The position numbers and the translations under genes are program-made. DNA of 64,000 nucleotides, from the NCBI GenBank assembly GCA_963757755.1, contig CAVWTK010000004.1, forward strand, positions 445,783 through 509,782. The letters run 5' to 3'. Origin of the DNA: an uncultured bacterium (lineage in GTDB: Bacteria > Desulfobacterota > Binatia > HRBIN30 > CADEER01). Of the stretch, positions 14,696 to 59,627 are shown piece by piece. Each line of letters begins with the position of its first letter. Position 1 is the first letter of the stretch. Under the pieces are notes generated by a model. The model saw only the letters and a program-made list of their open reading frames with translations, had not been told where the DNA came from and made no database searches.

Positions 14696-14791
14696 GAGAA
14701 GGCAAAACGGCAAAAGGCGAAAGGCAAACATCGAAAGTCCTCGCCCGCACATTTTGCCTTTCGACTTTGCCGTTCTGCCTTTTGCCTTCTC
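14696..14791. repeat. Composite hairpin element (a), arms built from GGCAAA(A)-type subrepeats
   Basis: The left arm GAGAAGGCAAAACGGCAAAAGGCGAAAGGCAAA (14696-14728) pairs with the right arm TTTTGCCTTTCGACTTTGCCGTTCTGCCTTTTGCCTTCTC (14752-14791) in blocks of 12, 7 and 11 bp separated by bulges. It fills the batA-batB spacer. Confidence 0.7.
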
Positions 14792-34585: not shown

Positions 34586-34685
34586 GATTGGAGGGCGCCG
34601 CTCCCGCGGCGCCTGGCAGCGGGGTCGGGTTTGCGATGTACCATCCGGGACAGGCCGCGCGGGAGCGCGGCCCTCCAATCGGGGG
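34586..34685 (+). repeat. Structured dispersed repeat, copy 2
   Basis: GATTGGAGGG (34586-34595) pairs with CCCTCCAATC (34671-34680). Internal hairpins are GGCGCCGC-TCCC-GCGGCGCC (34594-34613) and GGCCGCGC-GGGA-GCGCGGCC (34653-34672). Confidence 0.65.
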
Positions 34686-46712: not shown

Positions 46713-46730
46713 CGTCCGAACCCAATTCCT

Positions 46731-46811
46731 TTCAACGCAGAGACGCAGAGATCGCCGAGTCTCGCAGAGATCCCTCCGCGTTCTCCGCGTCCTCGGCGTC
46801 TCTGCGTTGAA
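46731..46811. repeat. Composite hairpin element (d), CGCAGAGA subrepeats
   Basis: TTCAACGCAGAGACGC (46731-46746) is perfectly complementary to GCGTCTCTGCGTTGAA (46796-46811). The interior is built from CGCAGAGA(T)/CGCCGAG units and their complements. It fills the gltB-gltD spacer. Confidence 0.7.
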
Positions 46812-46819
46812 TCTTTTCT

Positions 46820-54322: not shown

Positions 54323-55009
54323 ATGTCCAACTCGCGCGGTCGCACCCTGCTCATCGTCATCATCCTGCTCTCCGCGATCCTGCTCGCGGCCGGCAACATC
54401 CTCTGTCATGCCCTGGTGGTACAGGAGCTGACCGGCACCACCCCGCCGGTCGAGGGTGGCCTGATGCAGCAGATCATCCATTCGATCGGCCAGTCGGTCG
54501 GCCAGAACCCGCACTTCGTCTGGTTCTTCAGCGGCGCCCCGTTGCTGATGGGCGTGATCCTCGCCCTGCTCGTCGGGATGCAGGGCGGCGGGACGACCGC
54601 GGCGGCGGCGAGCTCGGCGGGCGGCGACGGCGCCAGCGAGGGCGCGCTGCGCCTGCTCGCCGTTCTCCAGAAGGAGGGCCGCCTGGTGGACTTCCTCGAG
54701 GAGGACATCCAGCCGTACACCGACGCGCAGGTCGGTGCCGCCGTGCGCGCGATCCACTCCGGCTGCCGCAAGGCGCTGCACGAACGCATGGAGATCACCC
54801 GCATCTTCGGCGAGGAGGACGGTGCGTCGGTCGAGGTCGCCTCGGGATTCGATCCGGCGGCGGTGCGTCTCACCGGCAACGTGCACGGCCAGCCGCCGTT
54901 CCACGGCGTGCTCCAGCACGGCGGCTGGCGCGCCGCGCACGTCTCGTTGCCGAAGACGGCGGGCGTCGACAACGCGATCCTCGCGCCGGCCGAGGTCGAG
55001 ATCGCCTAG
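54323..55009 (+). CDS. DUF2760-like membrane-anchored protein
   Basis: GGAGG lies upstream of the ATG at 54323. There are two N-terminal TM helices, then ALRLLAVLQKEGRLVDFLEEDIQPYTDAQVGAAVRAIHSGCRKAL...GFDPAAVRLTGNVHGQPPFHGVLQHGGWRA...ILAPAEVEI. I recognise this as the DUF2760 core. Confidence 0.72.
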   Translation: MSNSRGRTLLIVIILLSAILLAAGNILCHALVVQELTGTTPPVEGGLMQQIIHSIGQSVGQNPHFVWFFSGAPLLMGVILALLVGMQGGGTTAAAASSAGGDGASEGALRLLAVLQKEGRLVDFLEEDIQPYTDAQVGAAVRAIHSGCRKALHERMEITRIFGEEDGASVEVASGFDPAAVRLTGNVHGQPPFHGVLQHGGWRAAHVSLPKTAGVDNAILAPAEVEIA

Positions 55010-55045
55010 GCAATCAGCGCAGCACGCACAGAGGACCACAGAGCT

Positions 55046-56773
55046 TTGGCAGCCCGTTACGTAGTCGGCATCGACCTCGGCACCACCAACTCAGTCGTCG
55101 CCTATGCGCCGGTGGACGGCAGCGACGCGATCCGCGTTCTGCCTGTCCCGCAGCTGGTCGCGCCCGGCACGACGGAGTCGGCGCCGCAGCTGCCGTCGTT
55201 CCTCTACCTGCCGGCGGCCGGGGAGAGCGCATCGGGCGACGCCATCGTCGGCGCCTACGCGCGCCAGCGCGCGAGCGAGGTGCCGGACCGCGTCATCGCC
55301 TCCGCGAAGTCGTGGCTCTCCTACGCCGGCCCCGATCGCGACGCGGTGCTGCTGCCGTGGGGCGCGACCGACGACGTGCCCAAGCTGTCGCCGGTCGCCG
55401 CGTCGGCGCGCTACCTCGCCCACCTCGCCGACGCCTGGAACACGGCGTTCCCGAAGGATCCGCTCGCCAAGCAGGACGTGCTGCTGACGGTGCCGGCGTC
55501 GTTCGACCCCGCCGCGCGCGAGCGCACGGTGCAGGCCGCCGAGGACGCCGGGTTGCCCACGGTCACGCTGCTCGAGGAACCGCAGGCGGCGCTCTACGCC
55601 TGGATCGACGCCGCCGGCGAGGACTGGCGGCGGCAGGTGACGGTCGGCGACGCGCTGCTGGTCTGCGACGTTGGCGGCGGCACCTCGGACTTCAGCCTGA
55701 TCGCCGCCCGCGATGAAGGCGGCAGCCTCGAGCTCGAACGGGTCGCGGTGGGCGAGCACATCCTCCTCGGCGGCGACAACATGGATCTCGCGCTCGCCCA
55801 CGCGGTGCGCGAGCGCCTCGCCGCCGACGGGACCGCGCTCGATGCCTGGCAGCTGCGCGGTCTGGTCGCGAGCTGTCGCGCCGCCAAGGAGCAGCTGCTC
55901 GGCACCGACCCGCCGGCGAGCCTGCCGGTCGCGATTCTCGGCCGCGGCCGCAAGGTGGTCGGCGGTGCGTTGCGGGCCGAGGTCGCGCGTGACGACGCGA
56001 CGACGTCGCTGGTCGACGGCTTCTTCCCCCGCTGCGCGCTCGGCGATCGCCCGCAGACGCCGCGCCGCACCGGCCTGCAGGAGCTCGGCCTGCCCTACGC
56101 CGCCGATGCCGCCGTCACGCGCCACCTGGCGAGCTTTCTCAGCCGCAGCGCCGATGCCGCTCCCGCCCCGACGGCGGTGCTCTTCAATGGCGGCGTCATG
56201 CGGGCCCCGGCGCTGCGCGAGCGCCTGCTGGCCGTGCTCGCCGGCTGGTATCCCGGGGGCGCCGTCCGCGCGCTCGGCGGCGCCGACCCAGAATTCGCCG
56301 TCGCGCGCGGCGCCGCCTACTACGGGCTCGCCCGGCGCGGCCGCGGCGTGCGCATCCGCGGCGGCATCGCTCGCACGTTCTACGTCGGCATCGAGACCGC
56401 CATGCCCGCCGTGCCCGGCATGCGGCCGCCGATCAAGGCGTTGTGCGTGGTCCCGCACGGCCTCGAAGAGGGCAGCGCGGTCGAGCTGCCGTCGCAGGAG
56501 CTCGCGCTGGTGGTCGGTGAGCCGACGGAATTCCGCTTCCTCAGCTCGACGACGCGCCGCGAGGATCATCCCGGCCTGCTCCTCGACAGCTGGAGCGCCG
56601 ATGAGATCGCCGAGCTGCCGCCGCTGCACACCACGCTCGAGTGGACCGGGCACGAGGGCGCCGTCATCCCCGTCCACCTCGAAGCCGACGTCAACGAGCT
56701 CGGCATCCTCGAGCTGCGCTGCGTCAGCCGCGACGGGCAGCGGTGGAAGCTCGAGTTCAACGTCAGGACATAA
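55046..56773 (+). CDS. Atypical Hsp70-like ATPase (575 aa, no canonical DnaK substrate-binding domain)
   Basis: The actin/Hsp70 NBD motifs are VGIDLGTTNS, LTVPASFD, DVGGGTSDFS, LLGGDNMD and LFNGG. The C-terminal region of about 150 aa is unlike the DnaK SBD but is shared with the next gene. Confidence 0.85.
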   Translation: MAARYVVGIDLGTTNSVVAYAPVDGSDAIRVLPVPQLVAPGTTESAPQLPSFLYLPAAGESASGDAIVGAYARQRASEVPDRVIASAKSWLSYAGPDRDAVLLPWGATDDVPKLSPVAASARYLAHLADAWNTAFPKDPLAKQDVLLTVPASFDPAARERTVQAAEDAGLPTVTLLEEPQAALYAWIDAAGEDWRRQVTVGDALLVCDVGGGTSDFSLIAARDEGGSLELERVAVGEHILLGGDNMDLALAHAVRERLAADGTALDAWQLRGLVASCRAAKEQLLGTDPPASLPVAILGRGRKVVGGALRAEVARDDATTSLVDGFFPRCALGDRPQTPRRTGLQELGLPYAADAAVTRHLASFLSRSADAAPAPTAVLFNGGVMRAPALRERLLAVLAGWYPGGAVRALGGADPEFAVARGAAYYGLARRGRGVRIRGGIARTFYVGIETAMPAVPGMRPPIKALCVVPHGLEEGSAVELPSQELALVVGEPTEFRFLSSTTRREDHPGLLLDSWSADEIAELPPLHTTLEWTGHEGAVIPVHLEADVNELGILELRCVSRDGQRWKLEFNVRT

Positions 56774-56777
56774 CTCC

Positions 56778-56846
56778 TTCACCACGGAGGCACGGAGACA
56801 CGGAGATCGTGGCCTCGTCTCCGTGTCTCCGTGCCTCCGTGGTGAA
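56778..56846. repeat. Composite hairpin element (e): perfect 29-bp inverted repeat of CACGGAG subrepeats
   Basis: TTCACCACGGAGGCACGGAGACACGGAGA (56778-56806), loop TCGTGGCCTCG, TCTCCGTGTCTCCGTGCCTCCGTGGTGAA (56818-56846). The two arms are exact reverse complements. It fills the spacer between the two Hsp70-like genes. Confidence 0.9.
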
Positions 56847-56854
56847 AAAGGCCT

Positions 56855-59627
<2,773 letters not shown>

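What the first reader, a model, noticed from the sequence alone, without database searches (positions are those of the whole stretch)
56778..56846. Perfect 29-bp inverted repeat fills the spacer between the two Hsp70-like paralogs
TTCACCACGGAGGCACGGAGACACGGAGA, an 11-nt loop, and the exact reverse complement occupy 69 of the 81 intergenic nt. The element starts 4 nt after the TAA of gene 2 and ends 8 nt before the ATG of gene 3. A stem of this length and GC content would be extremely stable in the mRNA. It leaves almost no single-stranded room for a ribosome-binding site for gene 3. It could therefore set the stoichiometry of the two paralogs through attenuation, a 3'-end stability element for gene 2, an RNase III site, or occlusion of translation initiation.
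Basis: seen in the sequence. Interest (0 to 1): 0.6.

Follow-up and report, generated by a model that had tools for sequence, protein, structure and literature searches.

The report
Empty selfish hairpin between Hsp70 genes
The perfect hairpin between the two Hsp70-like genes is real, but it is one cargo-less copy of a widespread selfish repeat whose full-length form carries a small nuclease gene and is built like the RNase III-excised intervening sequences of 23S rRNA, not a regulator made for these genes.

Summary

The hairpin is not specific to this locus.
- The genome holds about 67 paired copies. Each arm is TTCAC plus three CACGGAGN octamers, and the loops are unrelated.
- Nearly all copies sit 2-21 nt after a stop codon, often filling operon junctions just as this one does.
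- The Hsp70 pair is syntenic across the order. Its usual state is an ATGA overlap or a short spacer without a hairpin.
- The element occurs only in a few lineages, has decayed in the sister species, and other lineages carry different palindromes at this junction.
- The same octamer pairs were listed in 2009 in Geobacter metallireducens as untested "regulator binding sites".

New here:
- One copy with identical arms encloses a GxxExxY (PD-(D/E)XK nuclease) gene.
- GxxExxY genes are bracketed by arms of this type in 21 of 27 loci in relatives and 39 of 74 metagenome and viral loci, against 0 of 74 shuffled controls.
- "23S IVS protein" genes are bracketed by analogous arms.
- The Coxiella IVS, which RNase III cuts in its stem, has the same plan.

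The likely local effect is an RNase III target and 3' barrier that breaks the usual gene 2-gene 3 coupling. This is inferred and untested, because RNA-seq was unavailable.

The parts
54323..55009 (+). Gene 1 of the cluster: DUF2760 protein
   Evidence: Pfam PF10816, E = 8.4e-49. The ORF was called by a home-made codon log-odds caller.
55046..56773 (+). Gene 2: Hsp70-like protein (575 aa), stop TAA at 56771-56773
   Evidence: Pfam HSP70, E = 7.1e-16. Orthologs in 39 of 41 genomes of the order, always followed by gene 3.
56774..56777 (+). 4-nt spacer (CTCC) between the stop codon and the element. It lacks the A-rich tract typical of the family.
56778..56806 (.). Left arm: TTCAC plus three octamers (CACGGAGG, CACGGAGA, CACGGAGA)
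   Evidence: It is identical to the family consensus. The heptamers are 94-100% conserved over 104 arms, and the 8th position is free.
56807..56817 (.). 11-nt loop TCGTGGCCTCG, unrelated to the loops of other copies
   Evidence: 24 loops of 9-13 nt are listed, and none resemble each other.
56818..56846 (.). Right arm, the exact reverse complement of the left arm
   Evidence: 100% complementary.
56847..56854 (+). 8-nt spacer AAAGGCCT, with the SD-like AAAGG immediately at the foot of the stem
   Evidence: Comparable purine-rich motifs follow the right arm in other tandem copies.
56855..59627 (+). Gene 3: Hsp70-like protein with a DUF3731 C-terminus. A +1 frameshift near 57770-57804 splits it in this assembly.
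   Evidence: Pfam HSP70, E = 1.9e-18, and DUF3731, E = 6.9e-82. tblastn of the intact 923-aa G001 ortholog matches frame 1 to aa 305, then frame 2 from aa 317.
46730..46812 (.). Sister-subfamily element (TTCAACGCAGAGACGCAGAG... units CGCAGAG) in another operon junction of the same window
   Evidence: The orthologous site in G001 is also occupied, but diverged.

Best explanation
The hairpin is a cargo-less copy of a dispersed, horizontally spreading selfish element.

**What the element is**
- Its two ends are inverted repeats, each made of TTCAC(C) plus three tandem octamers (CACGGAGN).
- The full-length form carries a roughly 125-aa GxxExxY protein, a minimal PD-(D/E)XK nuclease with conserved D...ExK.
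- That gene starts right at the inner end of one arm, and it stops in or just before the other arm.
- Elements of this build insert a few nucleotides downstream of host stop codons, often inside operon junctions.
- The plan matches ORF-bearing 23S rRNA intervening sequences, whose terminal stem is cut by RNase III.

**Shown for this locus**
- The copy entered an ancestrally tight, translationally coupled gene 2-gene 3 junction before G000 and G001 split.

**Inferred for this locus**
- In the polycistronic RNA the copy forms a 29-bp perfect duplex.
- This duplex is a likely RNase III substrate and a 3'-exonuclease barrier.
- It separates gene 2 from gene 3, so gene 3 would depend on its own SD (AAAGG) at the foot of the stem.
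- Any effect on the ratio of the two proteins is a by-product of the insertion, not its purpose.
For: **Dispersal in this genome**
- At least 40 loci at 78-91% identity.
- 88 left and 91 right arms, giving 67 pairs, against 0 hits for five shuffled arms.

**Placement is the family norm**
- The stop codon lies 2-21 nt upstream in about 42 cases. There are 47 tandem, 10 convergent and 10 divergent contexts. Where room is asymmetric, the element hugs the stop in 7 of 7 cases.

**Sequence-level conservation**
- The arms are conserved while the loops are unrelated.

**Patchy distribution**
- 10 of 251 genomes of the class have it, all in this order, with bursts in G000 (98 arms), G001 (134) and G002 (55).
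- 0 of 32 named genomes of other phyla have it.
- 44 IMG/VR stretches have it.
- Geobacter metallireducens 'class 2' sites have the consensus TCTCCGTS[Y] x3, paired on opposite strands at variable distance (PMC2700814).

**The orthologous junction**
- ATGA overlap or a spacer of at most 40 nt in about 21 relatives.
- The element is present in G000 and G001, but decayed in G001 (-41.9 against -69 kcal/mol; gene 2 reads into the left arm).
- G002, G004, G014 and G039 carry other palindromes there.

**Turnover**
- Within 148 kb of synteny, G001 has 152-nt copies where G000 has none.

**Cargo**
- C1:874201-874635 has perfect identical arms around a GxxExxY gene (TIGR04256 68 and 78 bits; PF13366).
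- 21 of 27 GxxExxY loci in relatives are bracketed by tandem-unit inverted repeats.
- 39 of 74 metagenome and viral loci are bracketed, against 0 of 74 controls. L234 and L238 have arms identical to ours.
- The protein tree tracks arm type (0 of 200 shuffles as low) and not host taxonomy.

**The IVS parallel**
- TIGR02436 genes are bracketed by analogous arms: 2 of 2 in G000, and 8 of 24 against 0 of 24 controls in relatives.
- The Coxiella IVS has a 28-bp terminal stem, AGAAGA plus three tandem heptamers before the ORF's ATG, and RNase III cleavage in the stem (PMC4990558).
- G000 encodes an RNase III homolog.
Against: - RNase III cleavage, stabilisation and reduced gene 3 translation are therefore all untested.
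- Arm mismatches show no bias towards G-U on the transcribed strand (42 G-U against 42 A-C, p = 1). This gives no sign of selection on RNA pairing and fits a DNA-level constraint or simple youth of the copies.
- No target-site duplication or clean empty site was found. The flanks are inverted-complementary rather than direct, so transposition in the classical sense is not shown.
- It is not known whether GxxExxY mobilises the arms or is a passenger. The fold search gives only a generic PD-(D/E)XK core (TM about 0.5).
- Unrelated loops between identical arms are not explained by simple copy-paste.
- The gene-context numbers rest on a crude home-made gene caller applied to an assembly with frameshifts.
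Confidence: 0.8

Rival explanations
1. The hairpin is a locus-specific regulatory structure, evolved to set the ratio of the two Hsp70-like paralogs by attenuation, mRNA stabilisation or RBS occlusion.
For: - The stem is very stable and lies exactly between the two cistrons.
- The right arm is 28 of 29 identical between G000 and G001, although the flanking genes are only about 83-87% identical.
Against: - The same arms occur at about 67 unrelated junctions.
- The element is absent from most orthologous pairs, and 9 of them have an ATGA overlap.
- The left arm has decayed in G001.
- No terminator-like U-tract is present.
- Gene 3 is frameshifted in this assembly.
Confidence: 0.05
2. The arms are DNA binding sites for a nucleoid-associated or global regulatory protein, such as the IHF/HU-type factors proposed for the Geobacter class 2 sites. 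The hairpin potential is secondary.
For: - Heptamer-level sequence conservation with a free 8th position, and no G-U/A-C strand asymmetry.
- Aklujkar et al. proposed exactly this for the same octamers.
- The units change in concert in both arms (L236 against L234 and L238).
Against: - The proposal was never tested.
- The distribution is patchy and burst-like, and reaches viral contigs, which fits a mobile element better than a host regulon.
- The arms bracket specific cargo genes, with the start and stop codons built into them.
- The binding protein could be the cargo nuclease itself, which would merge this rival with the main explanation.
Confidence: 0.1
3. It is a REP/REPIN element mobilised by a RAYT (IS200/IS605-type Y1 transposase).
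For: - It is dispersed, extragenic and palindromic, and sits at gene 3' ends, like REPs.
- The genome has six Y1_Tnp hits.
Against: - No Y1_Tnp gene lies within 3 kb of any arm.
- The best RAYT-like gene (C4:738695) has its own, different REP array, GGCTTTCGACTGTCGCCCTTTCAGGGCGAGGA, in five copies.
- The arm is three direct octamers with no internal REP-type hairpin.
Confidence: 0.03
4. It is a bidirectional intrinsic transcription terminator or attenuator.
For: Many family members have an A-rich tract before the stem and a T-rich tract after it (flank logos).
Against: - This copy has neither tract (taaCTCC|...|AAAGGCC).
- The scan called no terminator in 55000-58000.
- Many copies abut the next gene's start with no room for a promoter.
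Confidence: 0.02

Closest known systems
[quoted passage not shown] 2009, PMC2700814)
   Same: The same octamer: three tandem repeats with consensus TCTCCGTS[Y], the reverse complement of CACGGAGA. The sites are paired on opposite strands at variable distance, multicopy, and found between genes.
   Different: They were described only as alignments in a genome paper, with an untested IHF/HU-binding hypothesis. No link was made to hairpin RNA, to cargo genes or to IVS elements. The host belongs to a different phylum.
ORF-bearing 23S rRNA intervening sequences (e.g. Coxiella burnetii IVS, PMC4990558; Leptospira and Salmonella IVS)
   Same: - Terminal inverted repeats form a stem of about 28 bp.
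- The 5' arm region is an AG-rich tract plus three tandem heptamers directly before the ATG of a small ORF.
- The element is regarded as selfish.
- RNase III cuts within the stem.
- TIGR02436 (S23p-type) genes in this genome and its relatives are bracketed by analogous tandem-unit arms.
   Different: - Our copy lies in an mRNA operon junction, not in 23S helix 25 or 45.
- It has no ORF.
- The cargo linked to this arm type is GxxExxY (PD-(D/E)XK), not the four-helix-bundle S23p.
- RNase III cleavage has not been shown for it.
REP/BIME elements of enterobacteria, including REPs within 15 nt of stop codons
   Same: These are dispersed extragenic palindromes at gene 3' ends and between operon genes. 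From general knowledge rather than tests here, they are known to stabilise upstream mRNA (malE-malF) and to interfere with termination when close to a stop codon.
   Different: They have no tandem-octamer arms. The cognate RAYT link was tested here and not met. The loops are hypervariable while the arms are near-identical.
MITEs (miniature inverted-repeat transposable elements)
   Same: Many short non-coding copies share terminal inverted repeats with a rarer gene-carrying copy: about 66 cargo-less copies to 1 cargo-bearing copy in G000.
   Different: No direct target-site duplication was seen. The interiors of the short copies are unrelated. The cargo is a 125-aa PD-(D/E)XK protein, not a recognised transposase.

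Membership tests
Geobacter 'class 2' tandem-octamer paired sites | Three tandem repeats with consensus TCTCCGTS[Y] | tested here: met
   The right arm is TCTCCGTG TCTCCGTG CCTCCGTG. The published consensus is quoted.
Geobacter 'class 2' tandem-octamer paired sites | Sites paired on opposite strands at variable distance, in multiple copies | tested here: met
   67 pairs, with loops of 0-377 nt.
Geobacter 'class 2' tandem-octamer paired sites | Bound by IHF/HU-type global regulators (the authors' hypothesis) | not testable with these tools
   No binding data exist. The paper offers this only as a proposal.
IVS-type element (ORF-bearing, RNase III-excised) | Terminal inverted repeats that form a long (20-30 bp or more) stem | tested here: met
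   A 29-bp perfect stem folding at -70.6 kcal/mol. The Coxiella stem is 28 bp.
IVS-type element (ORF-bearing, RNase III-excised) | Arms made of tandem 7-8-mers, preceded by an AG-rich tract and followed by the cargo ATG | tested here: met
   This holds at family level: tgaAGAAAGAC plus three octamers, and the cargo ATG abuts the arm. This copy has the octamers but lacks both the AG-rich tract and the cargo.
IVS-type element (ORF-bearing, RNase III-excised) | Inserted in 23S rRNA helix 25 or 45 | tested here: not met
   The copy lies between two protein-coding genes.
IVS-type element (ORF-bearing, RNase III-excised) | Excised or cut by RNase III in the stem | not testable with these tools
Only the presence of an RNase III homolog could be shown (C1:99483-100091, 40.6% identity to the E. 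coli enzyme).
REP/REPIN-RAYT | Cognate Y1 transposase (RAYT) flanked by the repeats | tested here: not met
   Six PF01797 hits, none within 3 kb of an arm. The best one has a different REP array.
REP/REPIN-RAYT | Each repeat unit is itself a short imperfect palindrome | tested here: not met
   The arm is three direct octamers with no internal hairpin.
MITE | Terminal inverted repeats shared with a gene-carrying element | tested here: met
   C1:874201-874635 has arms identical to ours around a GxxExxY gene. L234 and L238 show the same in metagenomes.
MITE | Direct target-site duplication and clean empty sites | tested here: inconclusive
   The flanks are inverted-complementary (A-rich and T-rich), not direct repeats. 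The one candidate empty site has non-homologous intergenic DNA.
Intrinsic terminator | GC-rich stem followed directly by a U-tract | tested here: not met
   The stem is followed by AAAAAGGCC, and the scan found 0 terminators.
Any Rfam family | Score above the family's gathering threshold | tested here: not met
   Only sub-threshold matches to miRNA-precursor hairpins, the best at 44 bits against a cut-off of 75.

The most novel reading that the evidence does not exclude
Tandem-unit hairpins such as this one may be the non-autonomous or empty form of a so far unrecognised class of small mobile cassettes.
- Their cargo would be either a GxxExxY PD-(D/E)XK nuclease or an S23p-type four-helix-bundle protein.
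- The classic 23S rRNA intervening sequences would be just the rRNA-resident members of the class.
- The arms would do two jobs. At the DNA level they would be the sites recognised for spread, possibly by the cargo nuclease acting on extruded cruciforms. At the RNA level they would form an RNase III-cleavable stem that also brings the host stop codon and the next start codon together.
- That would make insertion into rRNA helices and tightly coupled operon junctions nearly harmless.
Probability: 0.35. Interest if true: 0.75.

Novelty: new variant of a known kind. Interest (0 to 1): 0.5.

Why it matters
- **For this locus:** the Hsp70-like pair should not be credited with a purpose-built regulatory hairpin.
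- **For genome annotation:** this genome holds about 600 long hairpins, of which about 240 have tandem-unit arms. Many sit inside operons, where they will mislead terminator, sRNA and regulatory-motif predictions.
- **More broadly, if the cargo link holds:**
  - It would give a first functional context to two large families of unknown function (GxxExxY/PF13366 and the S23p/TIGR02436 "IVS proteins").
  - It would unify 23S rRNA intervening sequences with a much larger population of intergenic hairpins.
  - It would offer a testable idea of how selfish DNA can live inside translationally coupled operons.

Tried and rejected
- **Rfam:** only sub-threshold hits to miRNA-type hairpins.
- **Plasmid collection BLAST with the 69-mer:** no match, possibly because of low-complexity masking.
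- **Exact-protein lookup of gene 2, to name the organism:** not on record. The best named matches to gene 2 are Ca. Binatia MAGs at 65% and 58% identity, but those two genomes lack the repeat.
- **RAYT hypothesis:** rejected.
- **Intrinsic terminator:** rejected for this copy.
- **RNA-pairing selection test:** the G-U against A-C asymmetry test gave no signal (42 against 42).
- **Empty-site comparison, to define the element ends and any target duplication:** the only filled-versus-unfilled junction in the 148-kb synteny has non-homologous intergenic DNA.
- **Long-interior variants:** the interiors are not conserved between lineages, so there is no single master MITE.
- **L186, with arms 6 kb apart in a viral contig:** ORFs were only listed and not pursued.
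- **Sequence search of the PDB with the GxxExxY profile:** no hit.
- **Fold search:** only a generic nuclease core.
- **First fuzzy-regex census:** it timed out and was replaced by a Hamming scan.
- **First GC3 gene caller:** it was too strict and was replaced by codon log-odds, which remains crude.

Full report
**1. The observation**

- Arms lie at 56778-56806 and 56818-56846. They are 29 nt long and 100% complementary, with an 11-nt loop.
- The upstream ORF ends in TAA at 56773, 4 nt before the element. The downstream ORF starts at ATG 56855, 8 nt after it.
- As RNA the region folds at -70.6 kcal/mol, against -35.4 +/- 3.5 for shuffles (z = -10).
- Both neighbours are Hsp70-like. Gene 3 carries DUF3731, and a DUF2760 gene precedes the pair.
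- Each arm is TTCAC followed by three octamers of the form CACGGAGN.

**2. It is one copy of a dispersed family**

- The genome (7.2 Mb, 70% G+C, 9 contigs) holds dozens of matches at 78-91% identity.
- A Hamming scan with the 29-nt arm finds 88 left and 91 right arms. They form 67 left-right pairs. Five shuffled arms give no hit at all.
- Loop length is mostly 10-12 nt and ranges from 0 to 377 nt.
- Over 104 arms, the CACGGAG heptamers are 94-100% conserved and the 8th position of each octamer only 57-76%. Twenty-four loops of 9-13 nt share nothing.
- A sister subfamily with CGCGGAG/CGCAGAG units also exists. One copy lies in this window at 46730-46812.
- More broadly, the genome has 606 hairpins with arms of at least 22 nt. 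Of these, 238 have arms with 6-11-nt tandem periodicity, falling into several unit families. In 0.9 Mb the real sequence gives 44 such hairpins and a block-shuffled control gives 1.

**3. The placement that looked special is the family norm**

I used a home-made codon log-odds caller, which is crude, on an assembly that contains frameshifts.
- Of the 67 pairs, 47 lie between co-directional genes, 10 between convergent genes and 10 between apparently divergent genes.
- In about 42 cases a stop codon lies 2-21 nt (mode 4-12) before an arm.
- In tandem contexts the next coding signal usually begins 0-15 nt after the other arm.
- Where the intergenic space is asymmetric, the element hugs the stop codon in 7 of 7 cases.
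- Most copies follow a TGA and an A-rich tract (tgaAGAAAGAC|TTCACC), mirrored by a T-rich tract after the right arm.
- The Hsp70 copy lacks both tracts. No intrinsic terminator is called there.

**4. A natural experiment at the Hsp70 junction**

- Gene 2 followed by gene 3 is conserved in 39 of 41 genomes of the order. I extracted the junction from 33 of them.
- About 21 have a spacer of at most 40 nt without a hairpin. Nine of these have an ATGA overlap, the signature of translational coupling.
- The CACGGAG element is present in G000 and, at the same site, in the same-genus genome G001. In G001 the left arm has lost a unit and accumulated changes, and gene 2 has lost its stop and reads into the arm. 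The fold drops to -41.9 kcal/mol.
- G002 has a truncated CACGGAG element, and G004 a CGCAGAG-type element (-67.9 kcal/mol). G014 has a GTACNC-type palindrome and G039 an AATGGAAA-type one. G019 and G022 have a whole extra ORF there. G007 and G012 have short, plain spacers.
It also shows that this junction is repeatedly colonised.

**5. Mobility-like behaviour**

- The exact triple octamer occurs in 10 of 251 genomes of the class. All 10 are in this order, and counts range from 1 to 134 arms. A reversed-pattern control gives 0-1.
- It occurs in 0 of 32 named genomes from other phyla, yet in 44 IMG/VR contig stretches.
- According to Aklujkar et al. 2009, it also occurs in Geobacter metallireducens as 'class 2 predicted global regulator binding sites'. 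These are three tandem repeats with consensus TCTCCGTS[Y], paired on opposite strands at variable distance. I followed this lead from earlier notes of this scan and verified it in the paper.
- Across 148 kb of synteny with G001 (80-85% identity), two sites are occupied in both species, and G001 has two 152-nt copies with no counterpart in G000.
- No clean empty site or direct target duplication could be defined.

**6. What it is not**

- It is not a REP/RAYT element. There are six Y1_Tnp hits, but none lies near an arm, and the best one has its own, different REP array.
- It is not an Rfam family.
- There is no evidence of selection on RNA pairing. Arm mismatches on the transcribed strand split 42 G-U-compatible to 42 A-C.

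- The only copy in G000 with a long interior is C1:874201-874635. It has perfect arms identical to ours and encloses a GxxExxY gene (TIGR04256 at 68 and 78 bits in two frames; PF13366 PD-(D/E)XK). The gene's ATG abuts one arm, and its stop is the TGA of the other arm's GGTGAA.
- A second GxxExxY gene (C9:104976) is bracketed by a different tandem-unit repeat with 10-nt units. A third has no such repeat.
- In relatives, 21 of 27 testable GxxExxY loci are bracketed by an inverted repeat of at least 18 matches. Shuffled controls typically reach 11-14. The arms are all of the (T)TCACC + C-R-C-R-R-A-G type.
- In an independent sample of metagenome and viral contigs (36-67% G+C), 39 of 74 loci are bracketed, against 0 of 74 controls. 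Two of them (L234, L238) have arms identical to ours.
- The anatomy is constant. A host stop codon lies a few nt upstream, and the cargo ATG sits at or overlapping the arm's end. This puts the penultimate GGAG about 8 nt upstream, an SD-like spacing. The cargo stop lies in or just before the 3' arm, and the next host gene follows shortly.
- L234, L236 and L238 occupy the same host junction as the G000 copy. L236 has CGCGGAG/CGCAGAG units in both arms, so the units change in concert.
- The GxxExxY tree tracks arm type (9 changes against 13.2 for shuffles; 0 of 200 as low) and ignores host taxonomy.
- The protein keeps G, E, Y, D, E and K invariant (D...ExK). It models confidently (pLDDT 90.9) as a minimal PD-(D/E)XK core, nearest to Cas4 SSO0001 and lambda exonuclease at TM about 0.5. 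No PDB homolog is found by sequence.

**8. The IVS parallel**

- Both TIGR02436 genes in G000 (the '23S rRNA intervening sequence protein', a four-helix bundle) are bracketed by tandem-unit repeats of yet other unit types.
- In relatives 8 of 24 are bracketed, against 0 of 24 controls, mostly with G-rich 7-8-nt units.
- The Coxiella burnetii IVS paper reports the same plan, with experiments. It describes a 28-bp terminal stem, and an AGAAGA tract plus three tandem heptamers (GACAGAT) just before the S23p ATG. RNase III cleaves inside the stem (PMC4990558).
- G000 encodes an RNase III homolog.

**9. Mechanism for this copy**

*Shown:*
- It is a member of the dispersed family.
- It was inserted into an ancestrally tight junction before G000 and G001 diverged.
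- It is not conserved as a perfect hairpin.
- It is not followed by a U-tract.
- It leaves an SD-like AAAGG outside the stem.

*Inferred:*
- The transcript forms a 29-bp duplex that RNase III can cut, as it does in IVS stems.
- The 5' product ends in a stable half-stem or full stem that protects gene 2 mRNA.
- Gene 3 loses coupling and relies on initiation next to a bulky helix.
- Alternatively, the helix holds the stop and start codons close together, so that re-initiation survives.

The direction and size of any effect on the protein ratio are unknown. In addition, gene 3 is frameshifted in this assembly. This may be an assembly error, given 68% estimated completeness in only 9 contigs and a second cargo gene that is also split.

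**10. Verdict**

The object itself is more interesting than a lone hairpin. It is a barely described element type that links intergenic tandem-octamer hairpins, GxxExxY nuclease genes and 23S rRNA intervening sequences.

Noticed in passing
window 57770-57804 (gene 3): A +1 frameshift splits the Hsp70-DUF3731 gene. The G001 ortholog is an intact 923-aa frame. The GxxExxY gene at C1:874244-874592 is also split. Together with 68% estimated completeness in only 9 contigs, this suggests indel errors in the assembly rather than true pseudogenes.
   Followed up: partly
window 46730-46812: A sister-subfamily hairpin (TTCAAC plus CGCAGAG units) lies in another co-directional gene junction. The orthologous site in G001 is also occupied, but the sequence has diverged (95 against 83 nt).
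   Followed up: partly
window 14697-14783 and 34586-34680: Two further long hairpins. One has AAGGCAAA-type tandem-unit arms, the same unit type that brackets a TIGR02436 gene at C9:544168. The other is a GC-rich hairpin with 30-nt arms and no clear periodicity.
   Followed up: no
G000 C4:738695-739024 (L142, outside the window): An IS200/RAYT-like Y1 transposase gene lies next to an array of five direct copies and one inverted copy of a 32-nt REP-like hairpin, GGCTTTCGACTGTCGCCCTTTCAGGGCGAGGA. This is a separate REP/RAYT system in the same genome.
   Followed up: partly
L123 (G019) and L125 (G022), the junction between the Hsp70 pair: In one genus of the order, 684 nt carrying a complete extra ORF is inserted between gene 2 and gene 3. 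By eye the ORF looks like a beta-class carbonic anhydrase, but no family search was run.
   Followed up: no
L109 (G001), the orthologous junction: Gene 2 has lost its native stop and is translated through the decayed left arm (tail ...NVRTQGESSPRRPGG*), stopping in the loop. Ribosomes must therefore melt the hairpin on each pass, a geometry that would couple gene 3 initiation to gene 2 translation.
   Followed up: partly
L234, L236, L238 (metagenome contigs) and G000 C1:874201-874635: All share the same host junction (...GGCGTGTACGACTGA | element | ...GGACTACNTCGAGCTGCGC) and homologous GxxExxY cargo. The arms are CACGGAG-type in three and CGCGGAG/CGCAGAG-type in L236. All units in both arms changed together, which points to concerted evolution or co-evolution with a recogniser.
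   Followed up: partly
L167, L190, L162 (IMG/VR contigs): Long-interior CACGGAG elements contain nested hairpins of other tandem-unit types (CACGAAG, GTTTCNA) in their loops. This suggests that hairpin loops are themselves landing sites.
   Followed up: no
L128 (G014) and L129 (G039), the same Hsp70 junction: Unrelated palindromes with the same tandem-unit design (GTACNC units; AATGGAAA units) occupy the junction in other genera. The junction has been colonised repeatedly.
   Followed up: partly
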